Numbered from the whole stretch's first letter, positions 13,151 to 18,264 are shown. The stretch is 63,741 nucleotides of DNA, filler included, from Hausera hauseri (GCA_046269625.1; 13 parts of 13 records of this genome joined end to end with filler, not necessarily neighbours in it); one strand, 5' to 3'. Numbers and translations: made by a program. The notes: generated from the sequence alone by a model not told the origin.

Positions 13151-13510
13151 NNNNNNNNNNNNNNNNNNNNNNNNNNNNNNNNNNNNNNNNNNNNTTAATT
13201 AATTAANNNNNNNNNNNNNNNNNNNNNNNNNNNNNNNNNNNNNNNNNNNNAGGTCTACATTTTGGCTAAATTTGCAAAAATTTCTAAAATGCAAAATTAG
13301 TGAAATTTTACACGAATTTAGGGGTATTTTTGAATTCAAATTTTTTATGTTTCTAGTCATGCTAACTTGGTATCGATCACAGATTCTTGTAGCCAAGAAT
13401 CTCCCCTACTGCACCCTAGCGACAACACCCTTGGCTCAAAATCACCCCCCTAGAGTTCTTTCTTTTCTATCCCCCCTGGAGAGCAAAAAAATGAGGCAGA
13501 TAAATATTTA

Positions 13511-14148
13511 TTATACAAAAATCTCCTCATTAGACACAATTATTAGAGTAGGATGCTGAGAATTTGTCGGTGTAATTTCGGAATCGTCTGGATCTGTATC
13601 ACCATCCTTGCAGCAGGACAACAAAGCATTCTCTAGGCGGTTCATAGAATATGCATCCGTTTTTATTTCGTAGGAAGATCGTAAAACGACCGGTCCCAGG
13701 AATCCTGACATTTATTTCGGTTAAACATAGCAAGAGTGTGAGGGATACTTGTATCAGGTTTGCAGCATATGAAACACGGATTAGACCTTTCTAGGCTTGT
13801 GGAATTTTCGTCCAAGATTAATCCAGTTTGGAAAGCGTCCAAGCAGATTGTTTTAGCGTTCTCTTTTGGTTCATTAGTCATTATAGGGTCACTTGTTAGG
13901 TACCCATTCATTTGGCAGTGTGCAGGAAGAGGTTCCAATATCGGATATCTTGAAAGAAGCTTCTCATAATTTTGCATAACGCTGTATGCTGTTACTTGGA
14001 TATCACTAATGAAAATTTGAGCATGCACAATATTAAGGTATTCCTCGTAGTTACTTGCATATAACGTAGATGCGAGATTTTCTAATAATCTGCTTGTACA
14101 AATAGCTTTTGAGTAGATTGAGTTTAAATTATAACATATATTTTCCAT
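13511..14148 (-). pseudogene. Viral ORFan ORF4, copy 1 (~210 aa, CxxC motif, acidic tail)
   Basis: MENICYNLN...CFICCKPDTSIPHTLA...; frameshift at ~13665; aligns along its whole length with 16763-17400. Confidence 0.7.
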
Positions 14149-14222
14149 AATAATCAGAATGAAGCACAATTTAAAGTATATTTATGAAAATGGATACAAA
14201 GCGTTCTAAAAATAGTAACAAA

Positions 14223-14698
14223 TTATGCTTGATCATTGTTTTCTGATTGGCTATTTGAGGCACTAGCCCAGGCCTGAGTCACGGGGTCTTTGTTCAATGT
14301 TAACTTTATTCGTTTCTTTGCAATTTCTCTCTGGATATCGACGTTGTTTTCGATTAGGAATTGGTTTCTGTTGGCATTTGTGTCATACAGCATCTGCTGT
14401 CCAAATTGGTAAATTTTGAGCCGCTTAATGCAGGCTTCTTTCTGTAAAGGGTCCATTTTGATGGGCCAAAAATTAGTCTCAGAATTGTACGTGAAAATAA
14501 GGGGTATTTTTGACGGAATCACGACACTTTTGTAAAGCCCTCGTATAGATCTAAATTTGTAATAGTCATATAATCACTATCAATTTTCTACCTGTTGTCA
14601 TTTGGATGGTTGCATTGGATGATTGCCAAGAATATGTCTGGGGCAACGTCGTGGAATCCGATGTCATCAAACACAATGAGGTCATATTCCCCTGTCCA
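14223..14698 (-). pseudogene. rep: Rep SF3 helicase 3' half, copy 1 (exons 14698-14592 and 14550-14223)
   Basis: Walker B YDLIVFDD. After removing GT-AG intron 14551-14591 it reads RSIRGLYKSVVIPSKIPLIFTYN (B' and motif C), then EACIKRL (Arg-finger region). Confidence 0.82.
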
Positions 14699-15601
14699 AG
14701 GTAATTTGCTTTTCTCAGAAACTTTACCGAATTGTTTGTTGTCAATTTTTCCTCTGTTACTTCTTAGGAAGTCCCATAATGCTGTGGAAAGATGTGTTTG
14801 TTTCCAGTAGTCATGTGATGGTATGTATTCGTAACTGAATATATCTGGTTCGTTAGCTAGTACTTCTGTGACTCCAGTTTGGAAATTTAAATGGTCGTAA
14901 TATTTTTCAATGGTAGCTTCATGGTCCTTATGGTCTTTGATGATAGCTAGTTTTCGAGTTGGTACCATTAGGGGTGTAGATAAGGTTGTGGATGTTCCAG
15001 ATTTTGTCCATCCGTTGATGTAAGCATCGTCTTTGAGTATTCCATCGTTCCAATAAGCTAATAGACCTGTTTTTCCTGTAATGTTTGTGTTAGGTCTGTT
15101 TTCGAATTTGTTGAAGATGTTCTTTTTGTCAACGAAGAATTGTAATCTGCATTCTGGATTGATACCTTTGTAATCGACTGTACCTGTTTGATATATAGGT
15201 AAAGCGTTCATAAATTTTACTGAACAGGAGCTAGGTCTCCAGTATTCGTAGTATTGCATCGTATCGTTGAATTCTTTAATCCATACGTATGGTTGGAAAT
15301 AGGCTAGTTTGAATTCTGCCCATTCCGTAGAATCAGGATAATATGCGACACTGAATGTCATATTTATTGGGAAGGATATTTGAAGACTGTGTTCCAAATT
15401 CATATGGTTTCGTTTAGGATCCTCCAGTTTTCCTCCTTCCACTACGGACGGATTGATAGAGTCAACTCTCCATTTCAATCCTCCATGTACTGGAGATTCT
15501 TCGATATAAGCTTGGTTTTTGAATTGTTGTGGTGTTCTTTGAGGTGTTAGAAGCGTTTCTTTTGTGTGGTGTTGGTCCACTTGTACTTGTTCCTGGTGCA
15601 T
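14699..15601 (-). CDS. Putative jelly-roll capsid protein, parvovirus-like, 3' end replaced in frame by Rep sequence
   Basis: FNDTMQYYEYWRPSSCSVKFMNA...GINPECRLQFFVD resembles the parvoviral VP core pattern (L.NNY.GFRP..L.FK.FNI...NN..ST.QVF.D); recognised by eye only. Confidence 0.55.
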
Positions 15602-15703
15602 TTGGAATATGTTTCATTTTTTTAGTAGTTTTTGTGTTAAGTTACCTGTAATGTCTTTTGATTTTTCAGAGTATGTTATTGGTGTTTTTTGCTGGTAATG
15701 TAT

Positions 15704-16477: not shown

Positions 16478-16503
16478 TTATGACACTTTTACGTTATCCC
16501 CCC

Positions 16504-16517
16504 TATTTATATAAATA
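16504..16517 (-). promoter_or_regulatory. Putative TATA box for the viral ORF257/Cap unit
   Basis: TATATAAATAGGGGG on the minus strand ~30 nt before the ATG at 16477, within the palindrome TATTTATATAAATA. Confidence 0.5.
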
Positions 16518-16762
16518 ATATGAGGGGTTTGAGCAGGCTCAAAATAAATATAACATTGTTAAAAGTAAAATTAAAACAAATACTCTATTTTTTTACTTGT
16601 TCCCGCGTATGCAGCCGCCGCTTGCGTGAAGCGCAGGTAAGAGAGCTCCTCGTGTGCTGCCCCTACTGTCAGTCCCCGACCACACACTGGCTCAAAATCC
16701 CCCCTAGAAGACTTTCTTTTATATACCCTTAGGAACCGAAAAATTAGTCTAGGAAAATTTTA

Positions 16763-17400
16763 TTACACGATAATTTCCTCGTCAGATATAAGTATAACAG
16801 TCTGATCCTGACAATTCGTCGGAGTAGAATCAGTATCGTCCAAGTCAATCCCATCATTTTTTGTAAGAGCATGACAAAGCCTTCTCAAGGGGGGTCATAA
16901 TAAACGCATCCCCCTTTTTTGTAAGATGATCGGAGAACGAATGGTACCATGAATCCTGGGATTTATTGTGGTTAAATACCGCAAGAGTGTGAGGAATACT
17001 TGTATCTGGTTTGCAGCAGATAAAACACAGATTGGCTTTTTCCAGACTGTGAATATCTTTATCTAATATTAATCCAGTATGAAAAGTATCAGTGCAAATT
17101 TTTTTTAGCACCTTCCTTAGCGGTATTGGTAAATATCGGATCAGATGTTAGAAAACCATTCATTTGGTATTGCGACGGTAGAGGTTCCACTATCGGATAT
17201 TTAGTGAGAAGTCCATCGTAGTGTTGCATGATATTATAAACGGTTACTTGGATGTCACTGATGAAGATTTGATCATGTACGAGATTTAGGTATTGTTCAT
17301 AAACTTTCGCATATAGGATACCTGCGAGATCTTGTAGCAGATGGGATGTTGAAATTGCTTTAGAGTAAACGCAGTTTAAGTTATAACAGATATTTTCCAT
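16763..17400 (-). pseudogene. Viral ORFan ORF4, copy 2
   Basis: MENICYNLNCVYSKAI...CFICCKPDTSIPHTLAVF...; frameshifts in A-runs near 17100 and 16857, at different sites from copy 1. Confidence 0.7.
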
Positions 17401-17496
17401 AGTGCAGTTAAGCAGAGTAAAATAGTGCAATAAATAAGAACCAAATAGGAAATCTATTTTTAGAAACATTTTTTTTGCTTAATAACTGTTATCCTA

Positions 17497-18264
17497 TTGC
17501 CTGGTTGCTGCAGCTGACCAAGCTTAAGTCACCGGGTCTCTGGAAATTGACAATTTTATGCGTTTCTTTGCTATTTCCTTGTTTATATCAACATTGTTCT
17601 CCACTAGAAACATATTCCTGGTCTCTGTTGTTTCATAAAGCATTGTCTGGCCACATTGATATATCTTGAGCCTCTTAATGCAGGCCTCTTTTTGCACCGG
17701 GTCCATTTTTGCGGGCCAAAAGTTTATTTCACTGTTATAAGTGAATATTAGGGGGATCTTGGATGGGATGACGACACTCTTGTATAATCCTCTTATTGAT
17801 CTATGTGAAATAAAGAAGGTAAAAATATAATGTAATACCTGTTGTCATTAGCGTGATTACACTGTATTATGGCCAGGAATATATCGGGTGAGACATCGTG
17901 GAATCCCACGTCGTCAAATACGATCAAGTCGTATTCCCCTGTCCAGTCAAAGGGGCAATCATGCATTGAGTGTAATATGAGCGGGTTTTTCCCGTGGTTC
18001 AATGCGTAGCACGTTTTTTTGATGTTAGAAGCACCGAATAATATTGCGCTATTTATGCCCTTTTGCGGTGTAAAATCTATAGGAGGCAGGAGGTATGTTT
18101 GATTTGTGTTGGGGATATATTTCTCCCTGAATTTGTTCCGAATATAATTGTTTAGTAACCGGTTCTTGGTGACATATTCCACTCTGTCACCGTCCTTCAT
18201 AATCTCCATGGCCTCCTGAATATTTGGGGCCTCATCAAACATCTTATAGCTGGCCTTTTTAGAT
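17497..18264 (-). pseudogene. rep: CRESS-type Rep, copy 2 (oligomerisation region + SF3 helicase; HUH domain beyond the contig end); intron 17801-17838
   Basis: EAMEIMKDGDRVEYV, SAILFGASNIKKTCYAL (Walker A variant), YDLIVFDD, spliced RSIRGLYKSVVIPSKIPLIFTYN, EACIKRL; premature stop at 17524. Confidence 0.85.

What the first reader, a model, noticed from the sequence alone, without database searches (positions are those of the whole stretch)
13402..18264. Endogenous ssDNA-virus-like element pairing a CRESS-type Rep with a parvovirus-like capsid and two ORFans
Seen: four genes on one strand in the order ORF257, Cap, Rep, ORF4, then a conserved intergenic block. Rep has an SF3 helicase (GASNIKKT / LIVFDD / RSI..LY..V.IP...P.IFTYN / CIKRL) and an upstream EA.EI.K....EYV segment. 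Known: that motif style is typical of gemini/genomo-like CRESS Reps rather than parvoviral NS1, whose Walker B is EE. The capsid core (YYEYWRPSSCSVKFMN...RLQFFVD) reads more like parvoviral VP. Circo-like Rep plus parvo-like capsid hybrids such as NIH-CQV/PHV are known mainly from metagenomes. Inference: this may be the fossil of an undescribed unisense four-gene ssDNA virus lineage that infected this animal.
Basis: partly seen in the sequence, partly recalled or inferred. Interest (0 to 1): 0.85.

Follow-up and report, generated by a model that had tools for sequence, protein, structure and literature searches.

The report
Broken circo-parvovirus hybrid DNA fossil
This is a broken stretch of single-stranded-DNA-virus sequence, probably left in an invertebrate genome, that joins the copying enzyme of small circular DNA viruses to a coat protein most like that of parvoviruses, which may mark an undescribed hybrid virus lineage.

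Summary
The viral genes are real, but the four-gene unit is not as described. The window is 13 pieces joined by artificial linkers; the element fills one 5,014-nt piece. On the minus strand it reads Rep(B), ORF4(B), intergenic region, ORF257, truncated Cap, fused in frame to a second, 70%-identical Rep(A) tail, ORF4(A), then about 150 nt of flank. The copies diverged under purifying selection (dN/dS 0.13-0.17), so they are two virus lineages, not one concatemer. Rep is a spliced CRESS-type SF3 helicase (Atlas 0.95; motifs). It is not specifically gemini/genomo-like, and its HUH end is off the piece. Cap is an ssDNA jelly-roll capsid whose best match is parvoviral (Atlas 0.94, CRESS and gyrovirus clusters at 0.92, low recognition score). 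Two repeated 10-mers tie the ORF257 promoter to the Rep-ORF4 module, but codon composition differs between modules. No sequence homologue was found for any of the four proteins. Best reading: fossil of an undescribed CRESS-Rep/parvo-capsid virus (0.5). Circularity and host linkage are unproven.

The parts
13251..18264 (.). The single assembly piece that holds the element, bounded by artificial linkers; it ends inside Rep at 18264
17839..18264 (-). Rep copy B, exon 1, 5' part cut off by the piece edge: helical segment, Walker A-like GASNIKKT (18035), Walker B IVFDDV; no HUH domain on the piece
   Evidence: Atlas 0.95 to PF00910 / Cressdnaviricota cluster
17801..17838 (-). Putative 38-nt GT..AG intron of Rep copy B
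   Evidence: same position in copy A; intron 61% identical between copies against 72-78% for exons; motif triad completes only across it
17524..17800 (-). Rep copy B, exon 2: motif C (LIFTYN) and arginine-finger-like ACIKRL; ends 17 codons earlier than copy A
16763..17400 (-). ORF4 copy B: Cys-rich protein with acidic tail, about 210 codons, with frame breaks near 17105 and 16860, both at A runs; AATAAA overlaps the stop
16478..16762 (-). Intergenic region of copy B: TATATAAA at 16725 and 16513; TAGGGGGGAT at 16706 and 16505; ATTTTGAGCC at 16698 and 16545 with an inverted 7-mer at 16534; G+C-rich patch between the halves. No significant stem-loop or nonanucleotide
15704..16477 (-). ORF257: uninterrupted, basic (18% K+R), probably helical protein; ATG 36 nt after a TATA box; no homologue found
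15462..15617 (-). 51-codon S/T/G/P/N-rich ORF in another frame overlapping the start of Cap: an overlapping small gene or a frame break in the capsid N-terminus
14699..15601 (-). Cap: single jelly-roll capsid protein, C-terminally truncated, best match parvoviral
   Evidence: Atlas first hit 0.94, PF00740 31% / Denso_VP4 30% / IHHNV capsid 10%; turkey aveparvovirus VP2 as sole PDB hit at E 0.58 and 0.73, not significant
14592..14698 (-). Rep copy A, exon 1 tail (Walker B region), fused in frame to Cap at 14699|14698
14551..14591 (-). Putative 41-nt GT..AG intron of Rep copy A
14223..14550 (-). Rep copy A, exon 2
13511..14148 (-). ORF4 copy A, one frame break near 13665 in an A-rich tract; AATAAA overlaps the stop
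13403..13510 (-). Intergenic block of copy A, 70% identical to the first half of copy B's intergenic region, keeping ATTTTGAGCC (13442) and the G-run motifs
13251..13402 (.). Non-viral flank, 29% G+C, beginning at the junction with a perfect 9-bp hairpin (13381-13402); the only candidate host DNA
   Evidence: no Rfam match

Best explanation
The piece is the inactive remnant of an undescribed small ssDNA virus lineage that combined a spliced CRESS-type Rep with a capsid of parvoviral type and two accessory genes, all on one strand. Pieces of two related variants (A and B) lie head to tail, joined where Cap of B breaks into Rep of A, and abut probable host DNA.

How the virus most likely worked: host enzymes made the entering single strand double-stranded (established for ssDNA viruses). 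One transcription unit made Rep and ORF4 and ended at the AATAAA at the ORF4 stop; a second began at the TATA box 36 nt before ORF257 and made ORF257 and the capsid (signals shown, use inferred). [quoted passage not shown] Rep nicked the origin with an HUH domain (inferred; off the piece) and unwound DNA with its SF3 helicase (family shown), perhaps binding the repeated 10-mers as iterons (repeats shown, role inferred). Sixty jelly-roll subunits packaged a genome longer than the 3.6 kb seen here, in the parvoviral 4-6 kb range (inferred). ORF4, conserved and Cys-rich, was probably a metal-binding non-structural helper. ORF257, basic and helical, was probably a nucleic-acid-binding helper in the position of the middle NP gene of aveparvoviruses (analogy only). 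Whether the genome was circular or linear is open: the native order Rep-ORF4-ORF257-Cap fits both.
For: Rep: Atlas 0.95, recognition 2810, ten of the ten best family hits in one family or clan; four SF3 motifs in order, spaced 40 and 47 residues (first Walker A residue to the first Walker B aspartate, and that aspartate to the motif C asparagine), 0 of 200,000 shuffles; uuDDu and uxxN fit the CRESS definitions in PMC5399927 (passages).

Cap: all 10 rows listed by the Atlas are viral capsid or viral clusters, with a parvoviral cluster first (0.94, 198 of 256 features) and three more Cossaviricota parvo/denso-type clusters listed. The sole PDB hit of two overlapping slices is turkey aveparvovirus VP2 (identity of 9N5M from PMC12282197), the family predicted before the search.

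One replicon: two 10-mers recur in both halves of the intergenic region; 2 of 5,000 dinucleotide shuffles did as well, and 0 of 610 control stretches shared two. One of them lies between the TATA box and the ORF257 start, and ATTTTGAGCC is also kept in copy A.

Two lineages: dN/dS 0.13 and 0.17 for ORF4; synonymous sites saturated in Rep.

Decay: Cap-Rep fusion, three frame breaks in ORF4, sharp junction to A+T-rich DNA. Precedent for an in-frame Rep/capsid join in an endogenous CRESS element: Hymenolepis microstoma (PMC6186406, passage).
Against: The Cap Atlas result has recognition 1890, below the 2300 mark under which the tool calls a high score weak evidence. Gyrovirus (0.92), Cressdnaviricota (0.92) and smacovirus (0.91) clusters follow closely, and that query carried the 36-residue Rep tail. 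No Pfam capsid family matched. phmmer against 1.84 billion proteins gave 0 hits. Of 7 PDB queries with Cap, 2 gave the parvovirus hit (E 0.58, 0.73), 2 gave unrelated proteins (E 0.29, 6.9) and 3 nothing. The single-sequence fold failed (pLDDT 28.5). ORF257+Cap have 54% A at fourfold sites against 31% in the Rep-ORF4 module of the same copy (p = 2.4e-6; p = 0.009 against copy A), which fits separate origins. No origin hairpin or nonanucleotide loop was found. The frame breaks sit in A runs and could be sequencing errors. The flank is only about 150 nt.
Confidence: 0.5

Rival explanations
1. Two unrelated viruses side by side: a parvovirus/densovirus-like fragment (ORF257-Cap) sits between two copies of a CRESS Rep-ORF4 module or capsid-less replicon, as in an endogenous-virus cluster. 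The hybrid never existed as a virus.
For: Different fourfold-site composition of the two modules. One of the two Cap-Rep links is certainly a rearrangement. Homology between the copies ends inside the intergenic region, which could be the module's own end. Virus-derived repeats are known in invertebrate genomes (PMC3198968, passages).
Against: The half of the intergenic region that carries the ORF257 promoter shares two 10-mers with the half that follows ORF4 (2 of 5,000 shuffles; 0 of 610 controls). All genes share one strand with no filler DNA. Capsid gene replacement is common in real CRESS viruses (PMC13499601, passages) and would leave the same compositional contrast.
Confidence: 0.2
2. 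An unclassified but ordinary unisense CRESS virus: the capsid is a divergent CRESS-type jelly roll with long loops, and the parvoviral look is convergence or ancient shared ancestry.
For: Atlas clusters of Cressdnaviricota, smacovirus and gyrovirus capsids score 0.91-0.92, close to the first hit. Parvoviral and CRESS capsids are homologous (PMC6668415, passage). Smacovirus capsids are grouped with parvoviral ones by loop pattern (PMC11945456, section 5). Unisense genomes and intron-bearing Reps are known among invertebrate CRESS viruses (PMC6186406, passages).
Against: The parvoviral cluster ranks first and shares most features (198 against 177-184). The one virus in the PDB hits is a parvovirus VP2, aligned without gaps over 58 residues. 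By recall, short motifs typical of parvoviral VPs (W-x-x-DS, ST-x-W, RP, MVP, FSY) occur in the expected order; this last point comes from no call.
Confidence: 0.2
3. Not an endogenous element, or not one molecule: the piece is a chimeric contig, or comes from free virus or a co-sequenced organism, and its breaks are sequencing errors.
For: Fragmented assembly with 4-5.5 kb pieces and only about 150 nt of flank. Frame breaks at A runs. No second copy in the other 12 pieces. Hybrid ssDNA viruses are known reagent contaminants (PMC13141889, part 1 of 2).
Against: Copies only 70% identical are unlikely to be collapsed by an assembler (inference). The Cap-Rep join and the sharp, hairpin-marked junction to non-coding A+T-rich DNA look like genomic rearrangements. 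Other pieces hold decayed animal-type mobile elements of similar G+C.
Confidence: 0.1

Closest known systems
Oomyviridae (order Lineavirales; NIH-CQV / parvo-like hybrid viruses)
   Same: CRESS-type Rep joined to a capsid gene with a parvoviral trait; jelly-roll capsid (PMC12451638, PMC13426907, PMC13499601; passages).
   Different: Their parvoviral trait is described as a PLA2-containing capsid protein; no PLA2 motif is on this piece, and the likeness here is in the capsid core. Their likely hosts are stramenopiles. This element has a Rep intron and two extra genes. No Oomyviridae sequence was available for direct comparison.
Unclassified Cressdnaviricota with arginine-finger SF3 Reps (Arfiviricetes-like; class assignment recalled, not tested)
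   Same: Walker A/B/C plus arginine-finger-like motif, DD Walker B, spliced Rep, unisense layout known in circularisviruses.
   Different: Capsid ranks first with parvoviral clusters; four genes; more than 3.6 kb; Walker A departs from GxxxxGKT; no stem-loop nonanucleotide found.
Parvoviridae, especially NS-NP-VP layouts (Aveparvovirus) and invertebrate parvoviruses
   Same: Capsid best match; same-strand order replication gene, middle ORF(s), capsid (PMC12282197, passages).
   Different: The helicase groups with CRESS Reps, not NS1; DD rather than EE Walker B (EE recalled); no terminal hairpins or PLA2 on the piece.
Geminiviridae / Genomoviridae / phytoplasma pCRESS9 Reps
   Same: uuDDu Walker B, uxxN motif C; Walker A-B aligns in register with the pPAPh2 Rep at E 0.086; an intron in Rep (recalled).
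   Different: Not significant by profile; Atlas rank 27 at 0.88; unisense layout; capsid unlike theirs.
Cruciviruses and Bidnaviridae (other chimeric ssDNA viruses)
   Same: Replication and capsid modules of different ancestry (PMC6668415, PMC13499601).
   Different: Cruciviruses carry a tombusvirus-like capsid (recalled); bidnaviruses replace the HUH endonuclease with a PolB, and no PolB is on the piece.
Planarian PEVE/PIVE and acorn-worm parvovirus-like repeats
   Same: ssDNA-virus-like elements in invertebrate genomes (PMC3198968, passages).
   Different: Those carry Parvo_NS1-type helicases; this Rep does not. The original PEVE paper was not held.

Membership tests
Cressdnaviricota (phylum) | Rep with SF3 helicase (Walker A, Walker B, motif C, arginine finger) | tested here: met
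   Walker A departs from the consensus at one position; no Pfam hit by HMM
Cressdnaviricota (phylum) | N-terminal HUH endonuclease (motifs I-III) | not testable with these tools
   The 5' part of Rep is off the piece; no motif II anywhere on it
Cressdnaviricota (phylum) | Single jelly-roll capsid protein | tested here: met
   Atlas rows all viral capsid or viral clusters, with a low recognition score; fold not modelled
Cressdnaviricota (phylum) | Circular genome with stem-loop and nonanucleotide origin | tested here: inconclusive
   No significant hairpin in the G+C-rich intergenic patch (z +0.4 to +1.2; whole region z -2.2 with an almost unpaired centroid); ANTATTAC matches at chance level, none intergenic (18 found, 12.6 expected). 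The origin may lie in missing DNA
Geminiviridae / Genomoviridae | Rep grouping with gemini/genomo/pCRESS9 Reps | tested here: not met
   Atlas rank 27, 0.88; pCRESS9 profile not above shuffles; no tree could be built for lack of eukaryotic reference Reps
Geminiviridae / Genomoviridae | GRS motif and RCR motifs | not testable with these tools
   Region is off the piece
Geminiviridae / Genomoviridae | Rep and capsid on opposite strands (recalled) | tested here: not met
   All genes on the minus strand
Parvoviridae | NS1-type SF3 helicase (PF01057; EE Walker B, recalled) | tested here: not met
   DD in both copies; no Parvo_NS1 set among the Atlas hits; no Pfam hit
Parvoviridae | Parvoviral VP jelly roll with beta-A and alpha-A | tested here: inconclusive
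   First Atlas hit and non-significant TuPV VP2 hit; no HMM or fold confirmation
Parvoviridae | Linear genome with terminal hairpins | not testable with these tools
   Genome ends not on the piece; no long inverted repeat
Oomyviridae | PLA2-containing capsid protein | tested here: not met
   No PLA2 motif in six frames; Cap's N-terminal frame is uncertain
Oomyviridae | Rep clustering in Lineavirales; linear genome; stramenopile host | not testable with these tools
   No reference sequences obtainable; the ICTV proposal file was not read
Bidnaviridae | Protein-primed PolB in place of the HUH endonuclease | tested here: inconclusive
   No PolB on the piece, but the piece is incomplete
Endogenous viral element | Viral DNA joined to host DNA and decayed | tested here: inconclusive
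   One sharp junction to about 150 nt of unidentified flank, a Cap-Rep fusion and frame breaks at A runs; no reads available

The most novel reading that the evidence does not exclude
The element records a surviving intermediate between CRESS viruses and parvoviruses: a lineage that already had the parvoviral capsid core and the parvoviral same-strand layout (replication gene, middle genes, capsid) but still used a CRESS-type Rep. That would make it a sister group of Parvoviridae, deserving its own family or order, rather than a late recombinant.
Probability: 0.12. Interest if true: 0.88.

Novelty: new variant of a known kind. Interest (0 to 1): 0.62.

Why it matters
Parvoviruses are thought to have evolved from CRESS viruses (PMC6668415, passages). 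[quoted passage not shown] A CRESS Rep paired with a parvoviral capsid core in an animal-associated sequence would be a new module combination. It would be either a capsid swap between two phyla or a link in parvovirus origins. None of the four proteins has a detectable sequence relative in the searches run, so the lineage is unsampled there. Two variants with conserved cis-elements show that it was a diversified, replicating group.

Tried and rejected
No hit or no useful hit:
- Pfam, PHROGs, NCBIfam, Rfam.
- Word-index homologue searches for Cap (165-527 aa only) and Rep exon 1 (246 aa and longer only). The same tool, given a pCRESS9 alignment, returned 26 Reps, every named one from a phytoplasma and none named as a geminivirus, so its blanks are weak.
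- phmmer of Cap against 1.84 billion representatives, 0 hits. Rep, ORF4 and ORF257 were not run there.
- Exact look-up, 0 of 7.
- Phage and plasmid tblastn.
- GTDB scan with Rep, 0 of 81 candidate stretches. Motif-C pattern scan, 61 loci, none a CRESS Rep on inspection.
- PDB sequence searches for Rep and ORF4 gave unrelated weak hits.
- Single-sequence AlphaFold models of Cap (pLDDT 28.5) and ORF257 (35.0) were too poor to search, so no fold search was run.

Considered and rejected:
- A rolling-circle concatemer of one genome (copies only 70% identical).
- Duplication and neutral drift after insertion (dN/dS far below 1).
- ORF257 as the missing HUH domain (no motif II; helical model).
- TAATATTAC inside ORF257 as an origin (no stem, z +0.55; chance level).
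- A parvovirus-like T-shaped hairpin in the G+C-rich patch (z not significant).
- A Helitron end in the flank (hairpin present, but spacing and following base do not fit the recalled pattern).

Literature: ten full-text searches listed no description of this layout. The library lacks most subscription papers, ICTV proposal files and bioRxiv supplements, and three requests for two papers failed, so a prior description cannot be excluded.

Unchecked: viral and metagenome contig collections, eukaryotic genome and transcriptome collections, and raw reads.

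
Full report
Setting. The window is not contiguous DNA. It is 13 pieces of 4.0-5.5 kb joined by 44N-TTAATTAATTAA-44N linkers, and the finding fills almost all of one piece, 13251-18264. The other pieces hold reverse transcriptases, an rve integrase with a chromodomain, a Monjiviricetes-type fusion glycoprotein and NMD3/JmjC fragments. That suggests a fragmented invertebrate assembly (inference), but none of it is physically linked to the element. 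No second copy of any of the four proteins lies in the other 12 pieces.

Anatomy. On the minus strand the piece reads: Rep copy B (cut at the piece edge, 18264-17524), ORF4 copy B (17400-16763), an intergenic region of about 285 nt, ORF257 (16477-15704), Cap (15601-14699), then without a stop the tail of Rep copy A (14698-14223), ORF4 copy A (14148-13511), half an intergenic region (to 13403) and about 150 nt of flank. Copies A and B are 70.4% identical over 1,313 columns. Identity starts abruptly at 14698 (78% on the Rep side, 42% on the Cap side) and ends at 13403 (70%, then 41%). The order that is continuous on the piece is Rep-ORF4-intergenic-ORF257-Cap. The two orders are equivalent only if the genome was circular.

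The two copies diverged as working genes. Differences fall mostly at third codon positions. dN/dS is 0.13 and 0.17 in the two halves of ORF4, and synonymous sites are saturated in Rep while amino-acid identity stays at 82-91%. This excludes a rolling-circle concatemer of one genome and neutral drift after duplication. It points to two virus variants whose pieces were joined. A similar in-frame Rep/capsid join is described for an endogenous cyclovirus element in Hymenolepis microstoma (PMC6186406, passage).

Rep. Both copies have a short GT..AG intron at the same place, 41 and 38 nt long. The introns are less conserved than the exons, 61% against 72-78%. Read across it with X, copy B shows GASNIKKT (residue 77), IVFDDV (114), LIFTYN (159) and ACIKRL (181), each once and in SF3 order. 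The triad occurred in 0 of 200,000 shuffles and is absent without the splice (pattern chosen after inspection). Walker B uuDDu and motif C uxxN fit the CRESS definitions, while Walker A departs from GxxxxGKT (PMC5399927, passages). The arginine finger is the fourth helicase motif (PMC5923481, passages). The ESM Atlas put exon 1 with CRESS helicases: first hit 0.95, 205 of 256 features, PF00910 in 64% of members, recognition 2810. The Gemini_AL1 cluster came 27th at 0.88, and no Parvo_NS1 set was listed. Against a gemini-type assignment, phytoplasma pCRESS9 Reps gave only E 0.086 pairwise, 0.8% and 0.1% probability by hhalign, and a profile score matched by 594 of 2,000 shuffles. Sequence searches for the Rep pieces found nothing. 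No HUH motif II is on the piece, and no tree could be built for want of eukaryotic reference Reps.

Cap. The Atlas ranked first a cluster carrying PF00740 (31% of members), Denso_VP4 (30%) and IHHNV capsid (10%), at 0.94 with 198 shared features. Gyrovirus (0.92), Cressdnaviricota (0.92) and smacovirus (0.91) clusters followed, and all 10 listed rows were viral. Recognition was 1890, under the tool's 2300 mark, and the query included the fused Rep tail. Of 7 PDB sequence queries, 2 overlapping slices returned one chain only, 9n5m_A (E 0.58, 0.73), which is turkey aveparvovirus VP2 (PMC12282197, passages). Two returned unrelated proteins at E 0.29 and 6.9 and three nothing. The hit is not significant by itself. 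It is, however, the family named in advance, and parvoviral capsids are by my estimate (no call) a fraction of a percent of the 177,635 sequences. From recall, short parvoviral VP motifs follow in order from beta-A to just past beta-G, which would put the break in the GH loop with beta-H and beta-I missing; this is a lead, not a test. Pfam, phmmer against 1.84 billion proteins, the word-index search and single-sequence AlphaFold all gave nothing. I take 'ssDNA jelly-roll capsid' as well supported and 'parvoviral type' as likely (about 0.7).

Do the two modules belong to one replicon? For: the intergenic half after ORF4 and the half before ORF257 share ATTTTGAGCC and TAGGGGGGAT. Two such 10-mers arose in 2 of 5,000 dinucleotide shuffles. 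Of 610 control stretches from other pieces, 13 shared one and none shared two. ATTTTGAGCC survives in copy A despite saturated synonymous sites, has an inverted 7-mer partner at 16534, and the G-run motif lies between the TATA box and the ORF257 start. AATAAA overlaps the ORF4 stop in both copies. Against: ORF257 and Cap have 54% A at fourfold-degenerate sites, against 31% for copy B's Rep and ORF4 (p = 2.4e-6) and 35% for copy A (p = 0.009), while ORF257 and Cap agree with each other (p = 0.44). That contrast fits either separate insertions or a capsid module acquired by the virus; capsid replacement is documented in Cressdnaviricota (PMC13499601, passages). No origin stem-loop or nonanucleotide loop was found, so the intergenic region may be an internal promoter rather than the origin.

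ORF4 and ORF257. Neither has a family or relative in the searches run; neither was run through the large homologue searches or the Atlas. ORF4 is 69% conserved between copies, with 8 Cys in 161 residues and an acidic tail. ORF257 is uninterrupted, 18% K+R and helical in a low-confidence model. I read them as a metal-binding and a nucleic-acid-binding accessory protein (inference).

Is it endogenous? The Cap-Rep fusion, three frame breaks in ORF4 and a sharp junction to 29% G+C non-coding DNA that starts with a 9-bp hairpin favour it. But copy B's breaks lie at A runs and could be sequencing errors, the flank is short and unidentified, and no reads were available. I put it at about 0.75.

Mechanism. 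The most likely virus used host enzymes for second-strand synthesis and two same-strand transcription units. Splicing switched between a short Rep and the full helicase, Rep drove rolling replication, possibly guided by the repeated 10-mers, and a T=1 jelly-roll shell packaged a genome longer than the 3.6 kb present. Shown: gene content, splice sites, helicase family, capsid class, repeats. Inferred: the HUH domain, topology, iteron role, accessory functions and integration. The element as it stands cannot replicate or make particles.

Comparison and novelty. It works like a CRESS virus with a swapped capsid, as cruciviruses, bidnaviruses and Oomyviridae do. It fails membership of Parvoviridae on the helicase and of Gemini-/Genomoviridae on Rep grouping and layout. 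It lacks the PLA2 trait described for Oomyviridae, which are linear and probably infect stramenopiles (PMC12451638 and PMC13426907, passages; contaminant status in PMC13141889, part 1 of 2). Parvoviruses are proposed to descend from CRESS viruses (PMC6668415, passages), so an intermediate is the boldest reading (0.12). Other papers seen as passages or one section: PMC3198968, PMC9241645, PMC11945456, PMC9615429. A supplement search of PMC6186406 found no motif text. Ten searches listed no report of this layout, within a library that lacks most subscription papers, ICTV proposal files and bioRxiv supplements.

Verdict. Observation partly confirmed, interpretation partly supported. New variant of a known kind, interest 0.62. 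Probabilities: real hybrid lineage 0.5; co-inserted separate viruses 0.2; ordinary CRESS virus with a divergent capsid 0.2; artefact or non-host origin 0.1.

Noticed in passing
window, 12 linkers (4753-4852, 8866-8965, 13151-13250, 18265-18364 and others): The window is 13 unlinked pieces joined by artificial N/TTAATTAATTAA linkers; neighbourhood across linkers means nothing.
   Followed up: yes
window 5792-8838 +: Intron-less, decayed NMD3 and JmjC/KDM5 fragments run into each other and are followed by a gag-like ORF and an aspartyl-protease-like ORF: possibly host mRNAs captured by an LTR retroelement.
   Followed up: no
window 44648-49956 -: A Monjiviricetes (chuvirus-type) fusion glycoprotein fragment (PF24664, E 1.4e-29) lies upstream of a reverse transcriptase on the same piece and strand: an LTR element with a captured viral envelope gene, or a chuvirus-derived element.
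   Followed up: no
window 10317-12480 + and 56360-58167 -: Two related Polinton-like pieces: rve integrase with a chromodomain plus, by my reading, a penton-like ORF. Window 24001-26320 - reads like protein-primed PolB fragments (not scanned).
   Followed up: no
window 59125-61908 +: A 927-codon open frame with internally repeated domains and Thr-rich linkers and no significant Pfam match.
   Followed up: no
window 1575-3250: Arrays of 105-135 nt tandem repeats, with the 2059-2538 and 2831-3250 arrays apparently in opposite orientation.
   Followed up: no
window 15462-15617 -: A 51-codon low-complexity ORF starts 16 nt before the first Cap ATG in another frame: an overlapping small gene or a frame break.
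   Followed up: partly
window 13381-13402: A perfect 9-bp hairpin begins exactly where viral homology ends; it may be the end of a host mobile element.
   Followed up: partly
window 29212-29709 - and 37212-38654 -: Decayed ORFs that read like DNA-transposon proteins (not scanned).
   Followed up: no
L042 (Marinoscillum furvescens contig), around 3001-3063 -: The motif-C pattern fell in a 1,089-codon bacterial ORF that looks like a primase-helicase; unrelated to the element by tblastn.
   Followed up: no
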